Of a DNA stretch of 64,000 nucleotides, positions 14,333 to 25,092 are shown piece by piece (position 1 is the stretch's first letter; each line of letters starts with the position of its first letter). Position numbers and translations under genes: made by a program. Under the pieces are notes generated by a model. That model saw nothing but the letters and a program-made list of their open reading frames with translations. It was not told the DNA's origin and searched no databases. Origin of the DNA: Candidatus Latescibacterota bacterium (lineage in GTDB: Bacteria > Latescibacterota > UBA2968); the NCBI GenBank assembly GCA_965198115.1, contig OZ240241.1:6272001-6336000 (forward strand). Reading direction: 5' to 3'.

Positions 14333-14744
14333 GAACCTTGCGTGGCGGCTTGCGGTCTGACTGCAGTACAGCCACAGAACACCTTGTTTATCCCCATTTG
14401 ACAGTTGAGTTTTCGTGCTCGTAGCAGCACACAAACACGGGTGAGGATTCGATGCGGACCGACCGCACAACAGCGCTGCCGCCGTTCTTCACTCAGGTCA
14501 TCGGCTCGCTGCCGCGGCCACGGGTGGTGCGCGACCTGATCGATCGGCGTGAGGCCATTCCGGCGACAGAGTATCGGCGGCTGATGGACGAGATGGTGAT
14601 TTTTGCCATTCGGTTGCAGGAACAGGCTGGCCTCGATGTCATCAGCGACGGGGAATGGCGGCGGGTGCACTACCTCGATGAATTCCTGCTGCGGGTAGGT
14701 GGCCACGAGAAGGTTCGATCGTTCGAGCACCAGGGTGAAAAAAG

Positions 14745-16164
14745 GGCTATATCCGGATCTCTCAACGAGATGAAGTGGGTGAAGGTGCCGTGGTTCCTGG
14801 CATGGGGGCGCGGTTAGAGTGTGCGGAACCTCTTCGGAATCTGCTCAGGGATGTTTATGTCTCCGACGGTAAGGAAGATCATATCGTTGAATGCGTCGAG
14901 TGTGCGGAATCCGCTGGCTCGGTTCTTGACGATTTGGACGATTCGGTTGAGGCCTTCGGCGATGGCGTTGGTAAGACGCGTGTTCACGAATGCGAGGACG
15001 CCGAAGAAGTGCTGTCGCAGGGTCCTGACGAACTTTCGCAGGGGTTCAAGTCGACTTCTGAGTGCGGACGTCGTCCAGCATTTCAGGAAGCGTTCGGCAG
15101 CCCAGGGCGCTTTGTATTCCCAGAACTGCTCGAACTCGTCCTTGAGTCTCCAGGCTCTATAGATTCGGTAGTTCGCCTTCTCCAGTGCTTTGAGTGTCCG
15201 AGTATCCCCTCTGGAGCGTGTCGCTGAGTGCCGGTAGAGGAGCCATCGGAGGCCCTTCATGGCTTTGCGCTCATCCGGGGCAGCTTTACGCCACTGGTCC
15301 TTACGGACCTCGTCAACGGCGGCATTGAGAGCCTTGACGATGTGAAAGCGATCGAGGACCAGCTTGGCATTCGGACAGTGTTCCTGGATGGCTCCGATGT
15401 AAGCTTCGCTCATGTCGCAGCAGGCCCACTCGATCTTGGATCTCCGGTAGGGACTGAGAGCCTCTGTGAAGAACCGATCGATCGTTTTACGCGCCCTGCC
15501 GCGGCCAACCCACACCACGCAGGAGCGGTCCAGATCGTAAACGAGCGTGGCGTACCTGTGACGCTTGGCGTAGGAGATCTCGTCGATCCCGATGGTTTTG
15601 AGCCCTCGGATACGATGACCTTCACGAAGCCGCGTGATGGATCGGTGAAGGAGATCCGACAGCGTCGAGGCAGAGATGCGCAGTAACTCGGACGCCGCCT
15701 TCTGCGTCATGGTCTGGCAGTAGCGCAGCATGGCATACTCGAAGCGATACGTCACCCGAGAGAACCGCTCCGCCCACGGAATCTCCTCGACCACACGACC
15801 GTGGGTAGGACACCGAATCTCCCGAGGATGGTAGAGAAGCCAGACCCTCCACCCGCACACCGGAATGTCACGCCACCGACGCGGATGGGGCATTGTGCGG
15901 ACGATTTTACCTCGACGGCCGCACTCCGGACAACAACAACCATTCTTATGTGGCTTTACGGCGATGACGAAACAGCTTCTCCCCTCAAACCACCAGCTGA
16001 CAACACGGAACCCCTTGAATCTCAGCAGTTTCGATAGTAATCTGCTCCCGGTCATAGGTCGCACCCCCTTCGCTTTGATTGTCCTACACACACAACCAAG
16101 CGTAGGGAACGATCTATGACCTTGTCATTCTATAGTTTCACCGTTGAGAAACCCGGATAGAGCC
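14745..16164 (-). mobile_element. ISL3 family insertion sequence (1420 bp)
   Basis: Imperfect terminal IRs GGCTATATCCGGATCTCTCAACG / CGTTGAGAAACCCGGATAGAGCC; 8-bp A-rich target duplication GAAAAAAG / AAAAAAAG. Confidence 0.95.
14814..16055 (-). CDS. ISL3 family transposase
   Basis: CPECG zinc finger, IGIDE, CCDMSEAY, LDRFHIVK, TNAIAEGLN. Confidence 0.96.
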   Translation of the reverse strand: MTGSRLLSKLLRFKGFRVVSWWFEGRSCFVIAVKPHKNGCCCPECGRRGKIVRTMPHPRRWRDIPVCGWRVWLLYHPREIRCPTHGRVVEEIPWAERFSRVTYRFEYAMLRYCQTMTQKAASELLRISASTLSDLLHRSITRLREGHRIRGLKTIGIDEISYAKRHRYATLVYDLDRSCVVWVGRGRARKTIDRFFTEALSPYRRSKIEWACCDMSEAYIGAIQEHCPNAKLVLDRFHIVKALNAAVDEVRKDQWRKAAPDERKAMKGLRWLLYRHSATRSRGDTRTLKALEKANYRIYRAWRLKDEFEQFWEYKAPWAAERFLKCWTTSALRSRLEPLRKFVRTLRQHFFGVLAFVNTRLTNAIAEGLNRIVQIVKNRASGFRTLDAFNDMIFLTVGDINIPEQIPKRFRTL

Positions 16165-17131
16165 AAAAAAAGGTTACGACGGTTGTCACCGGCCGTATGC
16201 AGGGTGGGGCTCCGCTCTTCGTCGAGGAGGGGAATTCCTCGTCGAGCACACGAAGCGCTGCACCAAATACGCTTTGCCGGCCCCGTTTCTGCTTGCGATC
16301 CGTAAATGGGACGAGGAATACAGCAGCGACGCCTACCCGACGATGGAACACTACATCGAGCACGTCACGGAGCTGCTGGCAGCGGAGGCGACGGCGCTGG
16401 CTCAGACCGGCGTCGACATCATTCAACTCGACGATCCGGCGCTGACCTATCTATGCGATCGTCGATTGATGGGTGGGGAGGAAACTCACGACGATCGTCC
16501 TCGGCGCGAATGGGACATCGAGCGTCAGGTGCCGATGGCCCTTGACGCGGTCAATCAGATCGCTGCTGAGCTGCGGGTCGAGGTGCACCTGCATTGCTGT
16601 CACAGTGTTTACAAGAGGCAGAGCGACGTGACCGGCGATTACAAACCGATCATGCCCTTCCTGAAGGATGCACGGATCGACCGTGTCAACCTGGAGTTCG
16701 CGTATCACGGCACCGGCGAGGCCAGTGACCTGGCGTTGCTCCCGGATGGGATCGACGTCGGTATGGGTGTTGTGGATGTGCGTACGGAACAGATTCAGGC
16801 GGTCGAGGATATTGAGGAAATCGGCGCGGCCGGTGCTGCGATTGTCGAGCCAGCCCGGATCGCATTGAACCCCGACTGTGGGTTTGCGCCGGATTACGGT
16901 GAACCGCCGAGTATCGACGAGGCATACGAAAAGCTTTGTCGCCTAACGGAGGCGGCCGGGCGTCTTCGGCAACGTTTTGCCTGACAGCGCCTTCGGGGTG
17001 AGCACGAGGGCGAGCGCGTAATTCTCAATTTTTTAGAGACAATGCGTTGCCCTCGTCGCTGTGCTGTGCGCAGGGATGCTGTGAAGTAACACCAAAAGTG
17101 TCGACGTCGATAGTTTTGTGGAAACGTAGAT

Positions 17132-21117: not shown

Positions 21118-21209
21118 CGCCCAGGCGTTCGGCGGGGATTGGGACGGCAGTTTCCACGTGGCTCGATGTTACGCTGCCACGCTGAGGTGTGCGCCCGTTA
21201 CCATCGTCC
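21118..21209 (-). ncRNA. ZMP/ZTP (pfl) riboswitch upstream of glyA
   Basis: Minus strand: P1 GGACGATGGT/ACTGCCGTCC, J1/2 AACGGGCG, P2 GTGG..CCAC-GTGGAA, 3' hairpin GCCGAACGCCTGGGC with GGCG/CGCC pseudoknot. A downstream GCCCGGGCG can pair with CGCCTGGGC (expression platform). glyA is a canonical ZTP target. Confidence 0.85.
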
Positions 21210-21356
21210 ATTCTGCGATGCGGCCTGAAAGATATCTCAATCGAAGACGATGTCAACGAGCGCGGTGTTGTGGAATCGAGCGCCTGTTGGAGATTGTCGG
21301 ATCCCAGCCGACATCGGATTCGTAGGAAGGAGACAGCACTGTTCGCGATCAAACTG

Positions 21357-22085
21357 ATGGTGGCGACGCTGATTCTGCAGGCGCCGGTGGATGCGCAAAG
21401 GACGATGGTGTTCGCCGCCTCGAGTCTGGCGTCAGTGGTCGAGGCATTGGCTCGAGACGCCGATCGAGAAGGTCTCAGCTGGAATGCGGTCTTTGCCAGT
21501 TCGTCGACGCTGGCCAGACAGATCGAGCACGGTGCGCCGGCGGATCTGTATGTCTCCGCACATCCGAGATGGATGGATTACCTGGAGGAACGCGACCATC
21601 TGGAACCTGCCACGCGTCAAGATCTGGTGGCGAACACGCTTGTCGTGATTGCTCACGCGGAAGATTCGCCGGCGGTCCAGATGGAAAGAGATTTCGACTT
21701 CGCCTCGACTTTCGAGGGGCGACTGGCGATGGGAGATCCCAGTCACGTGCCGGCGGGAATGTATGCGAAGCAGGCGCTGACCTCGCTGGGATGGTGGACG
21801 GCGCTCGCTCACAGACTGGCGCCCACGAAGGATGTGAGAGCCGCGCTGAGCTATGTCGATCTGGGTGAGTGTTCGGTGGGCATCGTGTATGCCACGGACG
21901 TTTCGATCGCGTCCAATGTGAGAATCGTCGCGGCCTTTCCTGCCGATGCGCACGATCCGATCGTCTATCCCGTGGCCGTCGTGAAGGGACGTTATTCGGA
22001 TCAGGTTCGCAGGATCCTCGCTTTTCTAAACTCTGAAAGAGCGGGGGATGTCTTCAGGAGCCACGGATTTCGTGTGCTTGATTGA
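21357..22085 (+). CDS. modA: molybdate ABC transporter substrate-binding protein
   Basis: VFAASSL, FASSSTLARQIEHGAPADLYVSA, HVPAGMYAKQAL, GIVYATD, PIVYP; true start may lie slightly upstream. Confidence 0.92.
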   Translation: MVATLILQAPVDAQRTMVFAASSLASVVEALARDADREGLSWNAVFASSSTLARQIEHGAPADLYVSAHPRWMDYLEERDHLEPATRQDLVANTLVVIAHAEDSPAVQMERDFDFASTFEGRLAMGDPSHVPAGMYAKQALTSLGWWTALAHRLAPTKDVRAALSYVDLGECSVGIVYATDVSIASNVRIVAAFPADAHDPIVYPVAVVKGRYSDQVRRILAFLNSERAGDVFRSHGFRVLD

Positions 22086-22172: not shown

Positions 22173-22289
22173 GGAAACGACGGTTTCGCCACTGTGCGAG
22201 GCGGAATGGGCGTTTCGGCTTGCCGCTGTCGGGACACTCGGCGTATATTCTTGAGAGTCGATACAATCACCATTCATCGAGGATCACCG

Positions 22290-22346
22290 ATGACGGGTCA
22301 GACGCATTCGCGACGCGCTTTTCTTTGAGAGGAGCGCGCTTTTTTT
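22290..22346 (+). promoter_or_regulatory. putative pyrB leader: 12-aa uORF whose stop lies in a terminator hairpin
   Basis: GAGGA RBS, ATG 22290..TGA 22328 (MTGQTHSRRAFL); hairpin CGCGCTTTTCT/AGAGGAGCGCG followed by T7. Confidence 0.5.
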
Positions 22347-22397
22347 ATGTCTATGATGGAATGTCGATTTCCAACAGAATCCTGACCGAGGGCCGAC

Positions 22398-23324
22398 ATG
22401 GATAAACTGTTTCACGTGATCGAAGCGCAGCAGTTCGACCGACCGCTCCTGACGGAACTGTTCGCTGTGACGAAAGAGATGGAGGAGGTGGTCAGTCGAT
22501 ACGGATCGAACATCCTGAGCCGGCGGTTGATGGCGTCGCTTTTCTACGAGCCGAGCACACGTACACGTCTGTCGTTCGAATCGGCGATGTTCCGGCTCGG
22601 GGGGCAGGTGATCACGACAGAGAGCGCGCGTGAGTTTTCGTCGGCGGCGAAAGGAGAGACGCTTGAGGATACGATTCGTATCGTCGAGGGTTACAGCGAT
22701 GTCATCGTGATCCGTCACTTCGAGAGCGGCTCTGCGCGACGCGCGGCAGAGGTTGCCTCGGTGCCCATCATCAACGCGGGTGACGGTCCCGGTCAACACC
22801 CGACGCAAGCGCTGCTGGACGTTTACACGATCCGGAAAGAGATCGGCAGACTGGACGATTTCAAGATCGCGATGGTCGGCGACCTTGCGAATGGGCGTAC
22901 GGTCCGTTCTCTGACGTATCTTCTGTCGAAGTATGAGGGTGTCAAGATTTTCTTCGTGGCCCCACGCGTGGTGCGGATGAAGGATGATATCAAGGCACAC
23001 CTGGACGAGCACGGGATCGCGTGGGAGGAGGCCGATGATCTGATCGCTGTCGCGAGGGACGCGGATGTGATTTACCAGACCCGAATCCAGCGGGAGCGTT
23101 TCGGCGACAGGATCGAGGATTACGAGAAGGCCCGGGGCAAGTATGTGATCGACGGAACGGTGATGGAAGCGCTACAGGACTCTTCCGTGGTTCTTCATCC
23201 GCTGCCGAGGGTCGATGAGATCGCCCCAGAGATGGACGGCGATCCACGCTCGGCCTACTTCAGGCAGGCGCACAATGGTCTATACATTCGGATGGCGTTG
23301 TTGCGGATGGTTCTGGAAAACTGA
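22398..23324 (+). CDS. pyrB: aspartate carbamoyltransferase catalytic subunit (plant-type sequence)
   Basis: FYEPSTRTRLSF, KGETLEDT, HPTQALLD, HPLPR. Confidence 0.97.
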   Translation: MDKLFHVIEAQQFDRPLLTELFAVTKEMEEVVSRYGSNILSRRLMASLFYEPSTRTRLSFESAMFRLGGQVITTESAREFSSAAKGETLEDTIRIVEGYSDVIVIRHFESGSARRAAEVASVPIINAGDGPGQHPTQALLDVYTIRKEIGRLDDFKIAMVGDLANGRTVRSLTYLLSKYEGVKIFFVAPRVVRMKDDIKAHLDEHGIAWEEADDLIAVARDADVIYQTRIQRERFGDRIEDYEKARGKYVIDGTVMEALQDSSVVLHPLPRVDEIAPEMDGDPRSAYFRQAHNGLYIRMALLRMVLEN

Positions 23325-23930: not shown

Positions 23931-25092
23931 TTGAAGATCGAGAAGATTCGGGCAGTGCACGTGGACGTGCCATCCGGGAGAGTGACGGAGGGACGCCGCG
24001 ATCCTTGGACGGTTGATGCGGAAGTCGCGAATCCGATGTCTCGGTTCTCGGACTACAAGCCACACCGTTCGCTCTGGGGACCGAAGAAGTGGGGCACCGT
24101 GTGGGTTCAGGCGATCGCGGAAGACGGGACCTACGGTCTGGGACAGACATCGTTCGGCCGACCGGTTGCGTCTGTCGTTGACGATCACTTCGGGCCCGTA
24201 CTCGAAGGTGAGAGCGTTTTTGCGATCGAGAAGTGCTCGGATATGATGTTCCGGATGTCGAAGCCGTATGGCAGTTCGGGTCTGGCATCGTGCGCGATGA
24301 GTGCGGTCGATCTGGCGCTGTGGGATCTGGCGGGGAAGCTGAAGGAGCAACCCGTGTATGAGTTGCTCGGGGGGCCTACGAAGGACCGTGTGTTCTGTTA
24401 TGCGACGGGTAACGATACGGACTGGCAGTTGGAGCTCGGGTTCAAGGCGGTGAAGCTGGCGTGTCCTTACGGACCCGTGGATGGGCTCAAGGGGTTGCAA
24501 GAGAACGAGGCGCTGGTCGAAAAGACGCGCAAACTCGTGGGCGACGACGTGGAGGTGATGCTCGACTGCTATATGGCGTTCGACGTGGACTACACGATTC
24601 GATTGGCTCAGCGGCTCAGGCCCTTACGGGCTGAAATGGATCGAGGAGTTCCTGATTCCGGAGGACATCTACGGGCATAAAGCGGTGCGCGAAGCCATCG
24701 ACTGGGTCTCTCTCGCGTCGGGCGAGCACCTATACAGCCACTATCCCTATCTCCGGATCATCAAAGACGGCTCGCTCGACATCCTGCAGCCCGACATCAA
24801 CTGGGTTGGGGGGCTGACGGTCGCCCGCAAGATCGCCCACGCCGCAGAGGCAGCCGGACTCGATGTGATCCTGCACGGGGGCGCCGGGAACGCCTACGGC
24901 CAACACTTCACCTACGCGACGTCGAATTCGCCCTGGCTCGAATGCTTTGTGGGATCGCCACCGGGTGTGCCTCTCAAGGAGGCGTTTCCGCCCTGGCAGG
25001 CGGTTCCGGATGATGGATGGTTGACGCCACGGGAAGCGCCGGGATTCGGGATCGAGGTCGAAGAGACCTGGATTCGACCGTTCGAGTATTGA
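23931..25092 (+). CDS. mandelate racemase/enolase superfamily dehydratase, L-rhamnonate dehydratase-like (extra T at ~24624)
   Basis: VANPMSR, SAVDLALWDL, YATG, MLDCYMA, corrected KWIEE, ASGEH, ILQPDINWVGG. Confidence 0.85.

What the first reader, a model, noticed from the sequence alone, without database searches (positions are those of the whole stretch)
22398..23324. Bacterial pyrB that looks like a green-plant, UMP-inhibited ATCase
Seen: the protein reads ITTESAREFSSAAKGETLEDTIRIVEGYSD...RHFESG...GDLANGRTVRSL...MKDDIK...YQTRIQRERFG...ARGKY, and no pyrI or pyrC lies next to it. From memory of Arabidopsis ATC these stretches are nearly the same, including the AREFSS CP-loop described as mediating direct UMP feedback in plant homotrimeric ATCases, which E. 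coli- and Bacillus-type enzymes lack. Inference: this lineage has a regulatory-subunit-free, UMP-regulated ATCase, and may be close to the donor of (or a recipient from) the plant gene.
Basis: partly seen in the sequence, partly recalled or inferred. Interest (0 to 1): 0.7.

Follow-up and report, generated by a model that had tools for sequence, protein, structure and literature searches.

The report
Plant-type pyrimidine enzyme in uncultured bacteria
This bacterial gene encodes aspartate transcarbamoylase with the feedback loop published as exclusive to plants, so it is likely inhibited by UMP as the plant enzyme is, and green plants likely acquired their gene from bacteria of this kind.

Summary
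Confirmed. Window 22398-23324 is the only pyrB in a single-contig 8.4 Mb genome, probably Latescibacterota. It is 67-74% identical to land-plant and streptophyte ATCases, against 44% to E. coli and 46-53% to CAD. It keeps 13 of 14 residues of the Arabidopsis CP-loop, including the F161 equivalent (F80), and every UMP-contact residue. No PyrI was found in the genome or in 150 relatives. The gene is native and class-wide (107 of 114 genomes). In trees, green plants and algae form one clade nested among prokaryote-type enzymes with this loop (AU p=0.014), apart from CAD (p=0.0008). Transfer therefore likely ran from bacteria to the green ancestor. The window's class is the nearest sampled relative, but sister support is weak (84/81 and 45/86). 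UMP inhibition and oligomeric state are untested, and a type-I dihydroorotase could still be a partner. New here: a pyrL-like leader peptide and terminator precede pyrB. No cyanobacterial PyrB was in my trees.

The parts
22398..23324 (+). pyrB, aspartate transcarbamoylase catalytic chain of the plant type, 308 aa, no transit peptide
   Evidence: TIGR00670 334 bits over cut-off 237; Arabidopsis ATC is the best PDB match by sequence and by fold
22620..22661 (+). CP-loop, residues 75-88 (Arabidopsis 156-169); F80 codon at 22635-22637 corresponds to F161
   Evidence: 13 of 14 identical to Arabidopsis (alignment; numbering from PMC7878868; positions)
23076..23099 (+). Aspartate-loop motif RxQxER, residues 227-234, with R229 and Q231 (Arabidopsis R310, Q312)
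   Evidence: motif described as ATCase-defining in PMC4581275 passages
22220..22249 (+). Promoter-like -35/-10 pair upstream of the leader (predicted)
   Evidence: 9 of 12 consensus match; the same -10 hexamer is seen upstream in many relatives
22290..22328 (+). Putative 12-residue leader peptide ORF that stops inside the terminator hairpin
   Evidence: an equivalent 13-codon ORF at the same distance in the same-genus genome (L017)
22314..22348 (+). Intrinsic-terminator-like hairpin (11 pairs) with U-tract, about 50 nt before the pyrB start; putative attenuator
   Evidence: found in 47 of 100 distinct upstream regions against 0.1% of shuffles

Best explanation
This is the organism's sole aspartate transcarbamoylase, a plant-type catalytic chain with no PyrI, which likely works as a simple trimer that UMP inhibits directly at the active site. 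By analogy with Arabidopsis, UMP would fill the carbamoyl-phosphate and aspartate sites while the neighbouring subunit's CP-loop (F80, S81, A83, A84) folds over it; F80 and E79 would also let only one subunit close at a time. A leader-peptide/terminator attenuator likely adds control at the level of transcription. The gene is native to this bacterial class, and the common ancestor of green algae and land plants likely acquired its ATCase from this prokaryotic radiation, loop included. Shown: identity, residues, no PyrI found, distribution, tree topology. Inferred: UMP inhibition (about 0.75), stand-alone trimer (about 0.7), attenuation (about 0.65), bacteria-to-green direction (about 0.85), this class as the closest sampled sister (about 0.5).
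For: All UMP contacts named in PMC7878868 are kept at a constant offset of 81: R55, T56, R106, H134, R167, V169, R229, PLP 268-270, S81, A83, A84, plus E75, E79, F80, K85. The AF2 model (pLDDT 95) matches Arabidopsis structures in ranks 1-13, best TM 0.97. One pyrB in the genome; the second hit is an OTC-like 33% match. PyrI 0 of 151 genomes of the phylum and 0 of 10 other carriers, with the control ringing in 7 of 14. Other pathway genes are present: pyrC, carA, DHO dehydrogenase, OMP decarboxylase. GC3 0.73 and codon use at the 66th percentile are typical of the genome. Plant-type match (E at most 2e-100) in 107 of 114 same-class genomes. Greens monophyletic 100/99 in both careful trees; plant-type clade 100/99 with the loop columns removed. 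AU tests reject greens+CAD (p=0.0008), greens outside the 40 prokaryote-type rows (p=0.014, 68-row tree) and this class inside the greens (p=0.027). Terminator in 47 of 100 upstream regions, 42 of 47 with an ATG-led ORF reaching it; no PyrR over cut-off.
Against: No biochemical test. F161A shows the residue is needed, not that it suffices. An aromatic residue at this position occurs in 87 of 145 distant representatives and 12 of 12 viral-contig copies at about 45% identity, so it is not diagnostic alone. The genome encodes a bacterial type-I dihydroorotase like those of B. anthracis and Aquifex, and pyrC directly follows pyrB in at least 5 of 36 related loci examined. On the 43-row tree, greens outside all prokaryote-type rows was not rejected (p=0.062). 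The sister relation is weak: 84/81, 45/86 with a long-branch row inside and an unsettled bootstrap; FastTree instead grouped this class with WOR-3, and that grouping is not rejected (p=0.22). No cyanobacterial or ATC-I sequence was in the trees. The leader ORF test has a 55% chance background and the genomes are kin.
Confidence: 0.68

Rival explanations
1. The enzyme is plant-type in sequence but forms a class A complex with the type-I dihydroorotase, as in Aquifex; it may or may not also bind UMP.
For: Type-I PyrC present in the genome and over cut-off in 35 of 41 class genomes; pyrB-pyrC adjacency in L049, L066, L067, L069, L085 and probably the truncated L063; PMC9771888 passages relay the suggestion that all type-I DHOases may bind ATCase.
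Against: pyrC lies 870 kb away, beside carA, in this genome, and none of the 21 loci examined from this class has it adjacent. The known class A partner is of another ATCase family (Aquifex 97 bits). In WOR-3 only 7 of 61 genomes carry the plant type and most carry 30-39% ATC-I-like genes, so the adjacency may be a replaced gene in an old operon (inference).
Confidence: 0.15
2. The enzyme is an unregulated class C trimer. The loop is an ancestral catalytic feature, true UMP sensitivity arose later in plants through other changes, and the bacterium controls the pathway by attenuation only.
For: The aromatic-Ser-Ser loop is widespread in distant enzymes; an attenuator-like leader exists; prokaryotic ATCases without regulatory chains are described as nucleotide-insensitive (PMC7878868 introduction).
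Against: The only element the structure paper proposes as the UMP determinant is this loop, and it is 13 of 14 identical here within a protein about 65-70% identical overall.
Confidence: 0.14
3. The gene came from a green alga or plant into these bacteria, or is contamination in the assembly.
For: Very high identity to plants; the prasinodermophyte query ranks these bacterial proteins level with land plants.
Against: No intron or transit peptide, native codon use, class-wide vertical pattern, greens monophyletic without bacteria, and nesting of this class inside greens rejected. A transfer from an extinct stem-green lineage is not excluded.
Confidence: 0.03

Closest known systems
Arabidopsis ATC (PDB 6YPO, 6YS6, 6YW9; Bellin et al. 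2021, PMC7878868)
   Same: Fold (TM up to 0.97), 63-65% identity in the structural alignment, CP-loop 13 of 14, all UMP contacts, no PyrI
   Different: Bacterial, no plastid transit peptide, N157 replaced by Ser, preceded by an attenuator-like leader, coexists with a type-I dihydroorotase; UMP inhibition not measured
Chlorophyte and prasinodermophyte ATCases (Botryococcus, Picochlorum, Prasinoderma)
   Same: 66-70% identity; chlorophytes share the Ser at the N157 position
   Different: Chlorophytes have Tyr at the F161 position and Gly at 159, so the bacterial loop is closer to Arabidopsis than theirs
E. coli and archaeal class B ATCase (PyrB + PyrI)
   Same: Same ATC II-like catalytic chain and active-site residues
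   Different: 43-48% identity, different CP-loop, PyrI not found here
Class A ATCase-dihydroorotase (Aquifex) and class C (B. subtilis)
   Same: No PyrI; type-I dihydroorotase in the genome
   Different: Distant catalytic chains (97 and 136 bits against 451); no plant-type loop
E. coli pyrL/pyrBI attenuator
   Same: Short leader ORF overlapping an intrinsic terminator just before pyrB (PMC5021804 passages)
   Different: Leader is 12 codons and stops in the hairpin loop; leader peptide sequence and frame are not conserved; UTP sensing untested

Membership tests
ATCase catalytic chain (PyrB) | STRT, RxQxER and HPLP motifs; family score over cut-off | tested here: met
Plant-type UMP-inhibited ATCase | CP-loop 156-169 with E160, F161, S162, A164, A165 | tested here: met
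   13 of 14 identical
Plant-type UMP-inhibited ATCase | UMP-contact residues R136, T137, R187, H215, R248, V250, R310, PLP | tested here: met
   the paper notes these are common to other ATCases
Plant-type UMP-inhibited ATCase | One clade with Viridiplantae ATCases, apart from CAD and class B | tested here: met
   100/99 without the loop columns; AU tests
Plant-type UMP-inhibited ATCase | Homotrimer with no associated subunit | tested here: inconclusive
   No PyrI, but a type-I PyrC is present and binding is untested
Plant-type UMP-inhibited ATCase | Competitive inhibition by UMP, not UTP or CTP; one PALA per trimer | not testable with these tools
   needs an enzyme assay and calorimetry
Class B ATCase (E. 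coli, archaea) | PyrI regulatory chain, separate or fused | tested here: not met
   PF01948 0 of 151 genomes; PF02748 0 of 1; no C-terminal extension
Class A ATCase-DHOase complex | Type-I dihydroorotase in the genome | tested here: met
   TIGR00857 406 bits over cut-off 279; best PDB matches are type-I enzymes
Class A ATCase-DHOase complex | Aquifex-like catalytic chain with pyrC adjacent | tested here: not met
   97 bits to Aquifex PyrB; pyrC distant; adjacent only in other lineages
Class A ATCase-DHOase complex | Stable PyrB-PyrC binding | not tested
pyrBI-type coupled attenuator | Leader ORF running into an intrinsic terminator before pyrB | tested here: met
pyrBI-type coupled attenuator | UTP-dependent pausing and read-through | not testable with these tools
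   needs a reporter or transcript-end data
PyrR-dependent attenuator | PyrR protein and PyrR-binding RNA | tested here: not met
   no match over cut-off; no credible Rfam match

The most novel reading that the evidence does not exclude
Direct active-site feedback by UMP, published as a plant invention, is an old prokaryotic mechanism used by a large uncultured radiation, and the green-plant ancestor took its ATCase, ready-regulated, from the stem of this Latescibacterota class, not from the host CAD or the cyanobacterial endosymbiont.
Probability: 0.4. Interest if true: 0.75.

Novelty: new member of a known kind. Interest (0 to 1): 0.58.

Why it matters
The structure paper calls the UMP-recognition loop 'exclusively conserved in plants', from an alignment of angiosperms, human and E. 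coli, and a July 2026 preprint still says it is thought unique to plants. Finding it across a bacterial class overturns that at the sequence level. It adds a likely fourth way bacteria regulate ATCase and points to a non-cyanobacterial source for a growth-limiting plastid enzyme. One 308-aa gene and one mutant would test the mechanism. Natural loop variants (Tyr, Gln, Val) offer a series for mapping what confers UMP sensitivity.

Tried and rejected
A fold without an alignment failed (pLDDT 35) and was repeated with one. No RNA holder was listed for the locus. Rfam gave only two chance snoRNA matches for the leader, and its folding z-score was -1.1. No match at 60% identity or more in plasmids (229 records with a match) or phages (39). 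Viral contigs gave 11 distant copies at 42-45% and 3 motif matches, not pursued. Loop counts were faulty (pattern error) and were replaced. Fused forms above 55% identity were green-plant or algal gene models plus one unnamed N-terminally extended ORF. I fetched no cyanobacterial PyrB, so that comparison is untested; that it belongs to the distant ATC I family is recalled. The supplement of PMC7542463, which holds an OTC/ATC tree, could not be read. Rejected: contamination or recent transfer from plants; class B with PyrI; PyrR control.

Full report
Observation. It is flanked by modA and glyA upstream, and by an unknown ORF and a rhamnonate-dehydratase-like gene downstream. Against solved structures, Arabidopsis ATC scores 451 bits, M. 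jannaschii 290, P. abyssi 281, human CAD 276, E. coli 254, B. subtilis 136 and Aquifex 97. Identity is 66.8-73.5% to 15 streptophyte proteins, 65.9-70.2% to 7 chlorophyte-like proteins, 46-53% to 8 CAD-type domains and 44% to E. coli. The top hit among 1.84 billion representatives is Nicotiana ATC. An AF2 model built on 123 sequences (pLDDT 95) retrieves Arabidopsis structures in ranks 1-13.

Residues. I read the abstract, introduction, results, discussion, the first methods sections and part 1 of 2 of supplement 1 of Bellin et al. 2021 (PMC7878868). UMP binds in the active site through R136, T137, R187, H215, R248, V250, R310 and PLP 349-351, and the neighbouring CP-loop (156-169) adds S162, A164 and A165. 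F161A abolishes inhibition. At an offset of 81, all of these are present here, with E156, E160, F161 and K166; the loop differs only at N157 (Ser). The paper calls the loop exclusive to plants, but the legend of its alignment lists angiosperms, human and E. coli only.

Genome context. The genome is one contig of 8.43 Mb, rated 100% complete and 5.1% contaminated. It has one pyrB; the only other hit is an OTC-like 33% match. Neither PyrI domain was found. PF01948 was found in 0 of 151 genomes of the phylum and 0 of 10 other carriers, several of them incomplete; the control rang in 7 of 14. A type-I dihydroorotase lies 870 kb away beside carA, no type-II enzyme was found, and DHO dehydrogenase and OMP decarboxylase families are present. 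GC3 and codon use are ordinary for the genome.

Distribution. A plant-type match (68-100% identity, E at most 2e-100) was found in 107 of 114 same-class genomes; the other 7 are fragmented drafts, one with a 78% fragment. Among 36 genomes of other classes, 11 have the plant type, 19 an ATC-I-like gene of 33-40%, and 6 only weak hits. The 80 are labelled Latescibacterota 43, Gemmatimonadota 17, WOR-3 or Stahlbacteria 7, Acidobacteriota 5, unnamed 5, and one each Myxococcales, Chloroflexota and Gammaproteobacteria. The Gemmatimonadota-labelled rows intermix with Latescibacterota. Loci L047 and L053 share their upstream DNA with same-family genomes, so I infer the window is Latescibacterota. In WOR-3 the type is patchy, 7 of 61 including the centre genome. 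All 80 loci have Phe at the 161 position, 59 have E-F-S-S-A-A-K and 10 the exact Arabidopsis loop; among 145 distant representatives covering the loop, 87 have Phe or Tyr and 13 the full core. One such representative is named Nanoarchaeota; most are unnamed and I treat them as prokaryotic by inference. Chlorophytes carry Tyr in this place.

Phylogeny. A 251-row FastTree, a 68-row careful tree and a 43-row careful tree without the loop columns all recover greens (Prasinoderma, chlorophytes, streptophytes) as one group (98; 100/99; 100/99), inside a plant-type clade separate from CAD and E. coli. In the 68-row tree one unnamed long-branch row fell inside the greens, and the bootstrap had not settled. 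The smaller sets were my selection; the 43-row set left out ten long-branch rows and thinned near-copies. AU tests: greens with CAD rejected (p=0.0008); greens outside all prokaryote-type rows rejected on 68 rows (p=0.014) but not on 43 rows (p=0.062); this class with streptophytes or with chlorophytes rejected (both p=0.027 with the same likelihood, probably one collapsed tree); this class with WOR-3 not rejected (p=0.22). The window's class is sister to greens at 84/81 and 45/86, and the highest identities to greens all belong to it. The direction is therefore likely bacteria to the green ancestor, and the donor is unresolved. Roots rest on class B outgroups. No cyanobacterial, ATC-I, red-algal or named glaucophyte row was included. 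Passages of PMC7542463 say red algae and glaucophytes keep only the eukaryotic pyrimidine CPS while greens use a cyanobacterial one, which fits replacement of CAD at the base of greens (inference).

Leader. A promoter-like site (22220-22249), a 12-codon ORF (22290-22328) and a terminator hairpin with U-tract (22314-22348) precede pyrB. Of 110 loci, 100 distinct upstream regions of sufficient length were scored: 47 have such a terminator within 90 nt (0.1% in shuffles), and 42 of these have an ATG-led ORF reaching it (55% in shuffles), often starting 7-10 nt after a conserved -10 box. These genomes are kin. No PyrR passed cut-off. This resembles E. coli pyrL attenuation, where coupling across the leader prevents termination (PMC5021804 passages). 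Function is inferred.

Mechanism and rivals. Most likely a PyrI-free trimer competitively blocked by UMP through the CP-loop, with attenuation as a second layer (0.68). A class A complex with the type-I dihydroorotase remains possible (0.15): pyrC follows pyrB in at least 5 of 36 loci examined (70 of 133 neighbour ORFs scanned), all outside the window's class, and passages of PMC9771888 suggest type-I enzymes may bind ATCase generally. An unregulated trimer is possible (0.14), since an aromatic residue alone is common. Plant-to-bacterium transfer or contamination is unlikely (0.03).

Prior knowledge. Ten full-text searches returned no paper, by title or abstract start, describing a bacterial plant-type ATCase. 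Passages of reviews (PMC6022934, PMC4581275, PMC8442968) treat effector-sensitive lone trimers as a plant trait, and passages of a 2026 preprint (10.64898/2026.07.01.735797) repeat that the loop is thought unique to plants and call plant PyrB similar to the cyanobacterial enzyme, which I could not test. Passages of PMC3602175, PMC4016543 and PMC6524683 added only background. Subscription papers (the Labedan ATCase phylogenies, recalled) and supplements of large gene-transfer surveys were not seen and could already list this relation. The scan's index had no earlier finding on it.

Verdict. Real, and a new bacterial member of the plant ATCase kind. It is surprising to specialists, cheap to test, and bears on where the plant enzyme and its regulation came from. 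Interest 0.58.

Noticed in passing
window 14452-16984: A cobalamin-independent methionine-synthase-like gene is split by an ISL3 transposase on the opposite strand (14814-16091); both halves hit PF01717.
   Followed up: partly
window 23931-25092: The rhamnonate-dehydratase-like gene is in two ORFs (249 and 135 aa), while relatives L046 and L051 have one ORF of about 390 aa just after pyrB; a frameshift or an assembly error.
   Followed up: partly
window 21189-22085: modA sits between glyA and pyrB, whereas glyA is the nearest large gene upstream of pyrB in L046, L051 and L054, suggesting an insertion in this lineage.
   Followed up: no
G000:C1:2870558-2872531: An array of 20 tRNA genes in about 2 kb on the minus strand.
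   Followed up: no
P0344, P0346, P0398 and other chlorophyte proteins: Chlorophyte ATCases have Tyr at the F161 position and Gly at 159, so the loop is not invariant across green plants.
   Followed up: partly
L003-L013, L014: Viral contigs carry pyrB genes at 42-45% identity with Tyr in the loop; L014 has an N-terminal ATCase piece running into 339 unrelated residues.
   Followed up: no
P0464: A Myxococcota protein fuses dihydroorotase to a CAD-like ATCase (687 aa), a different clade from the plant type.
   Followed up: no
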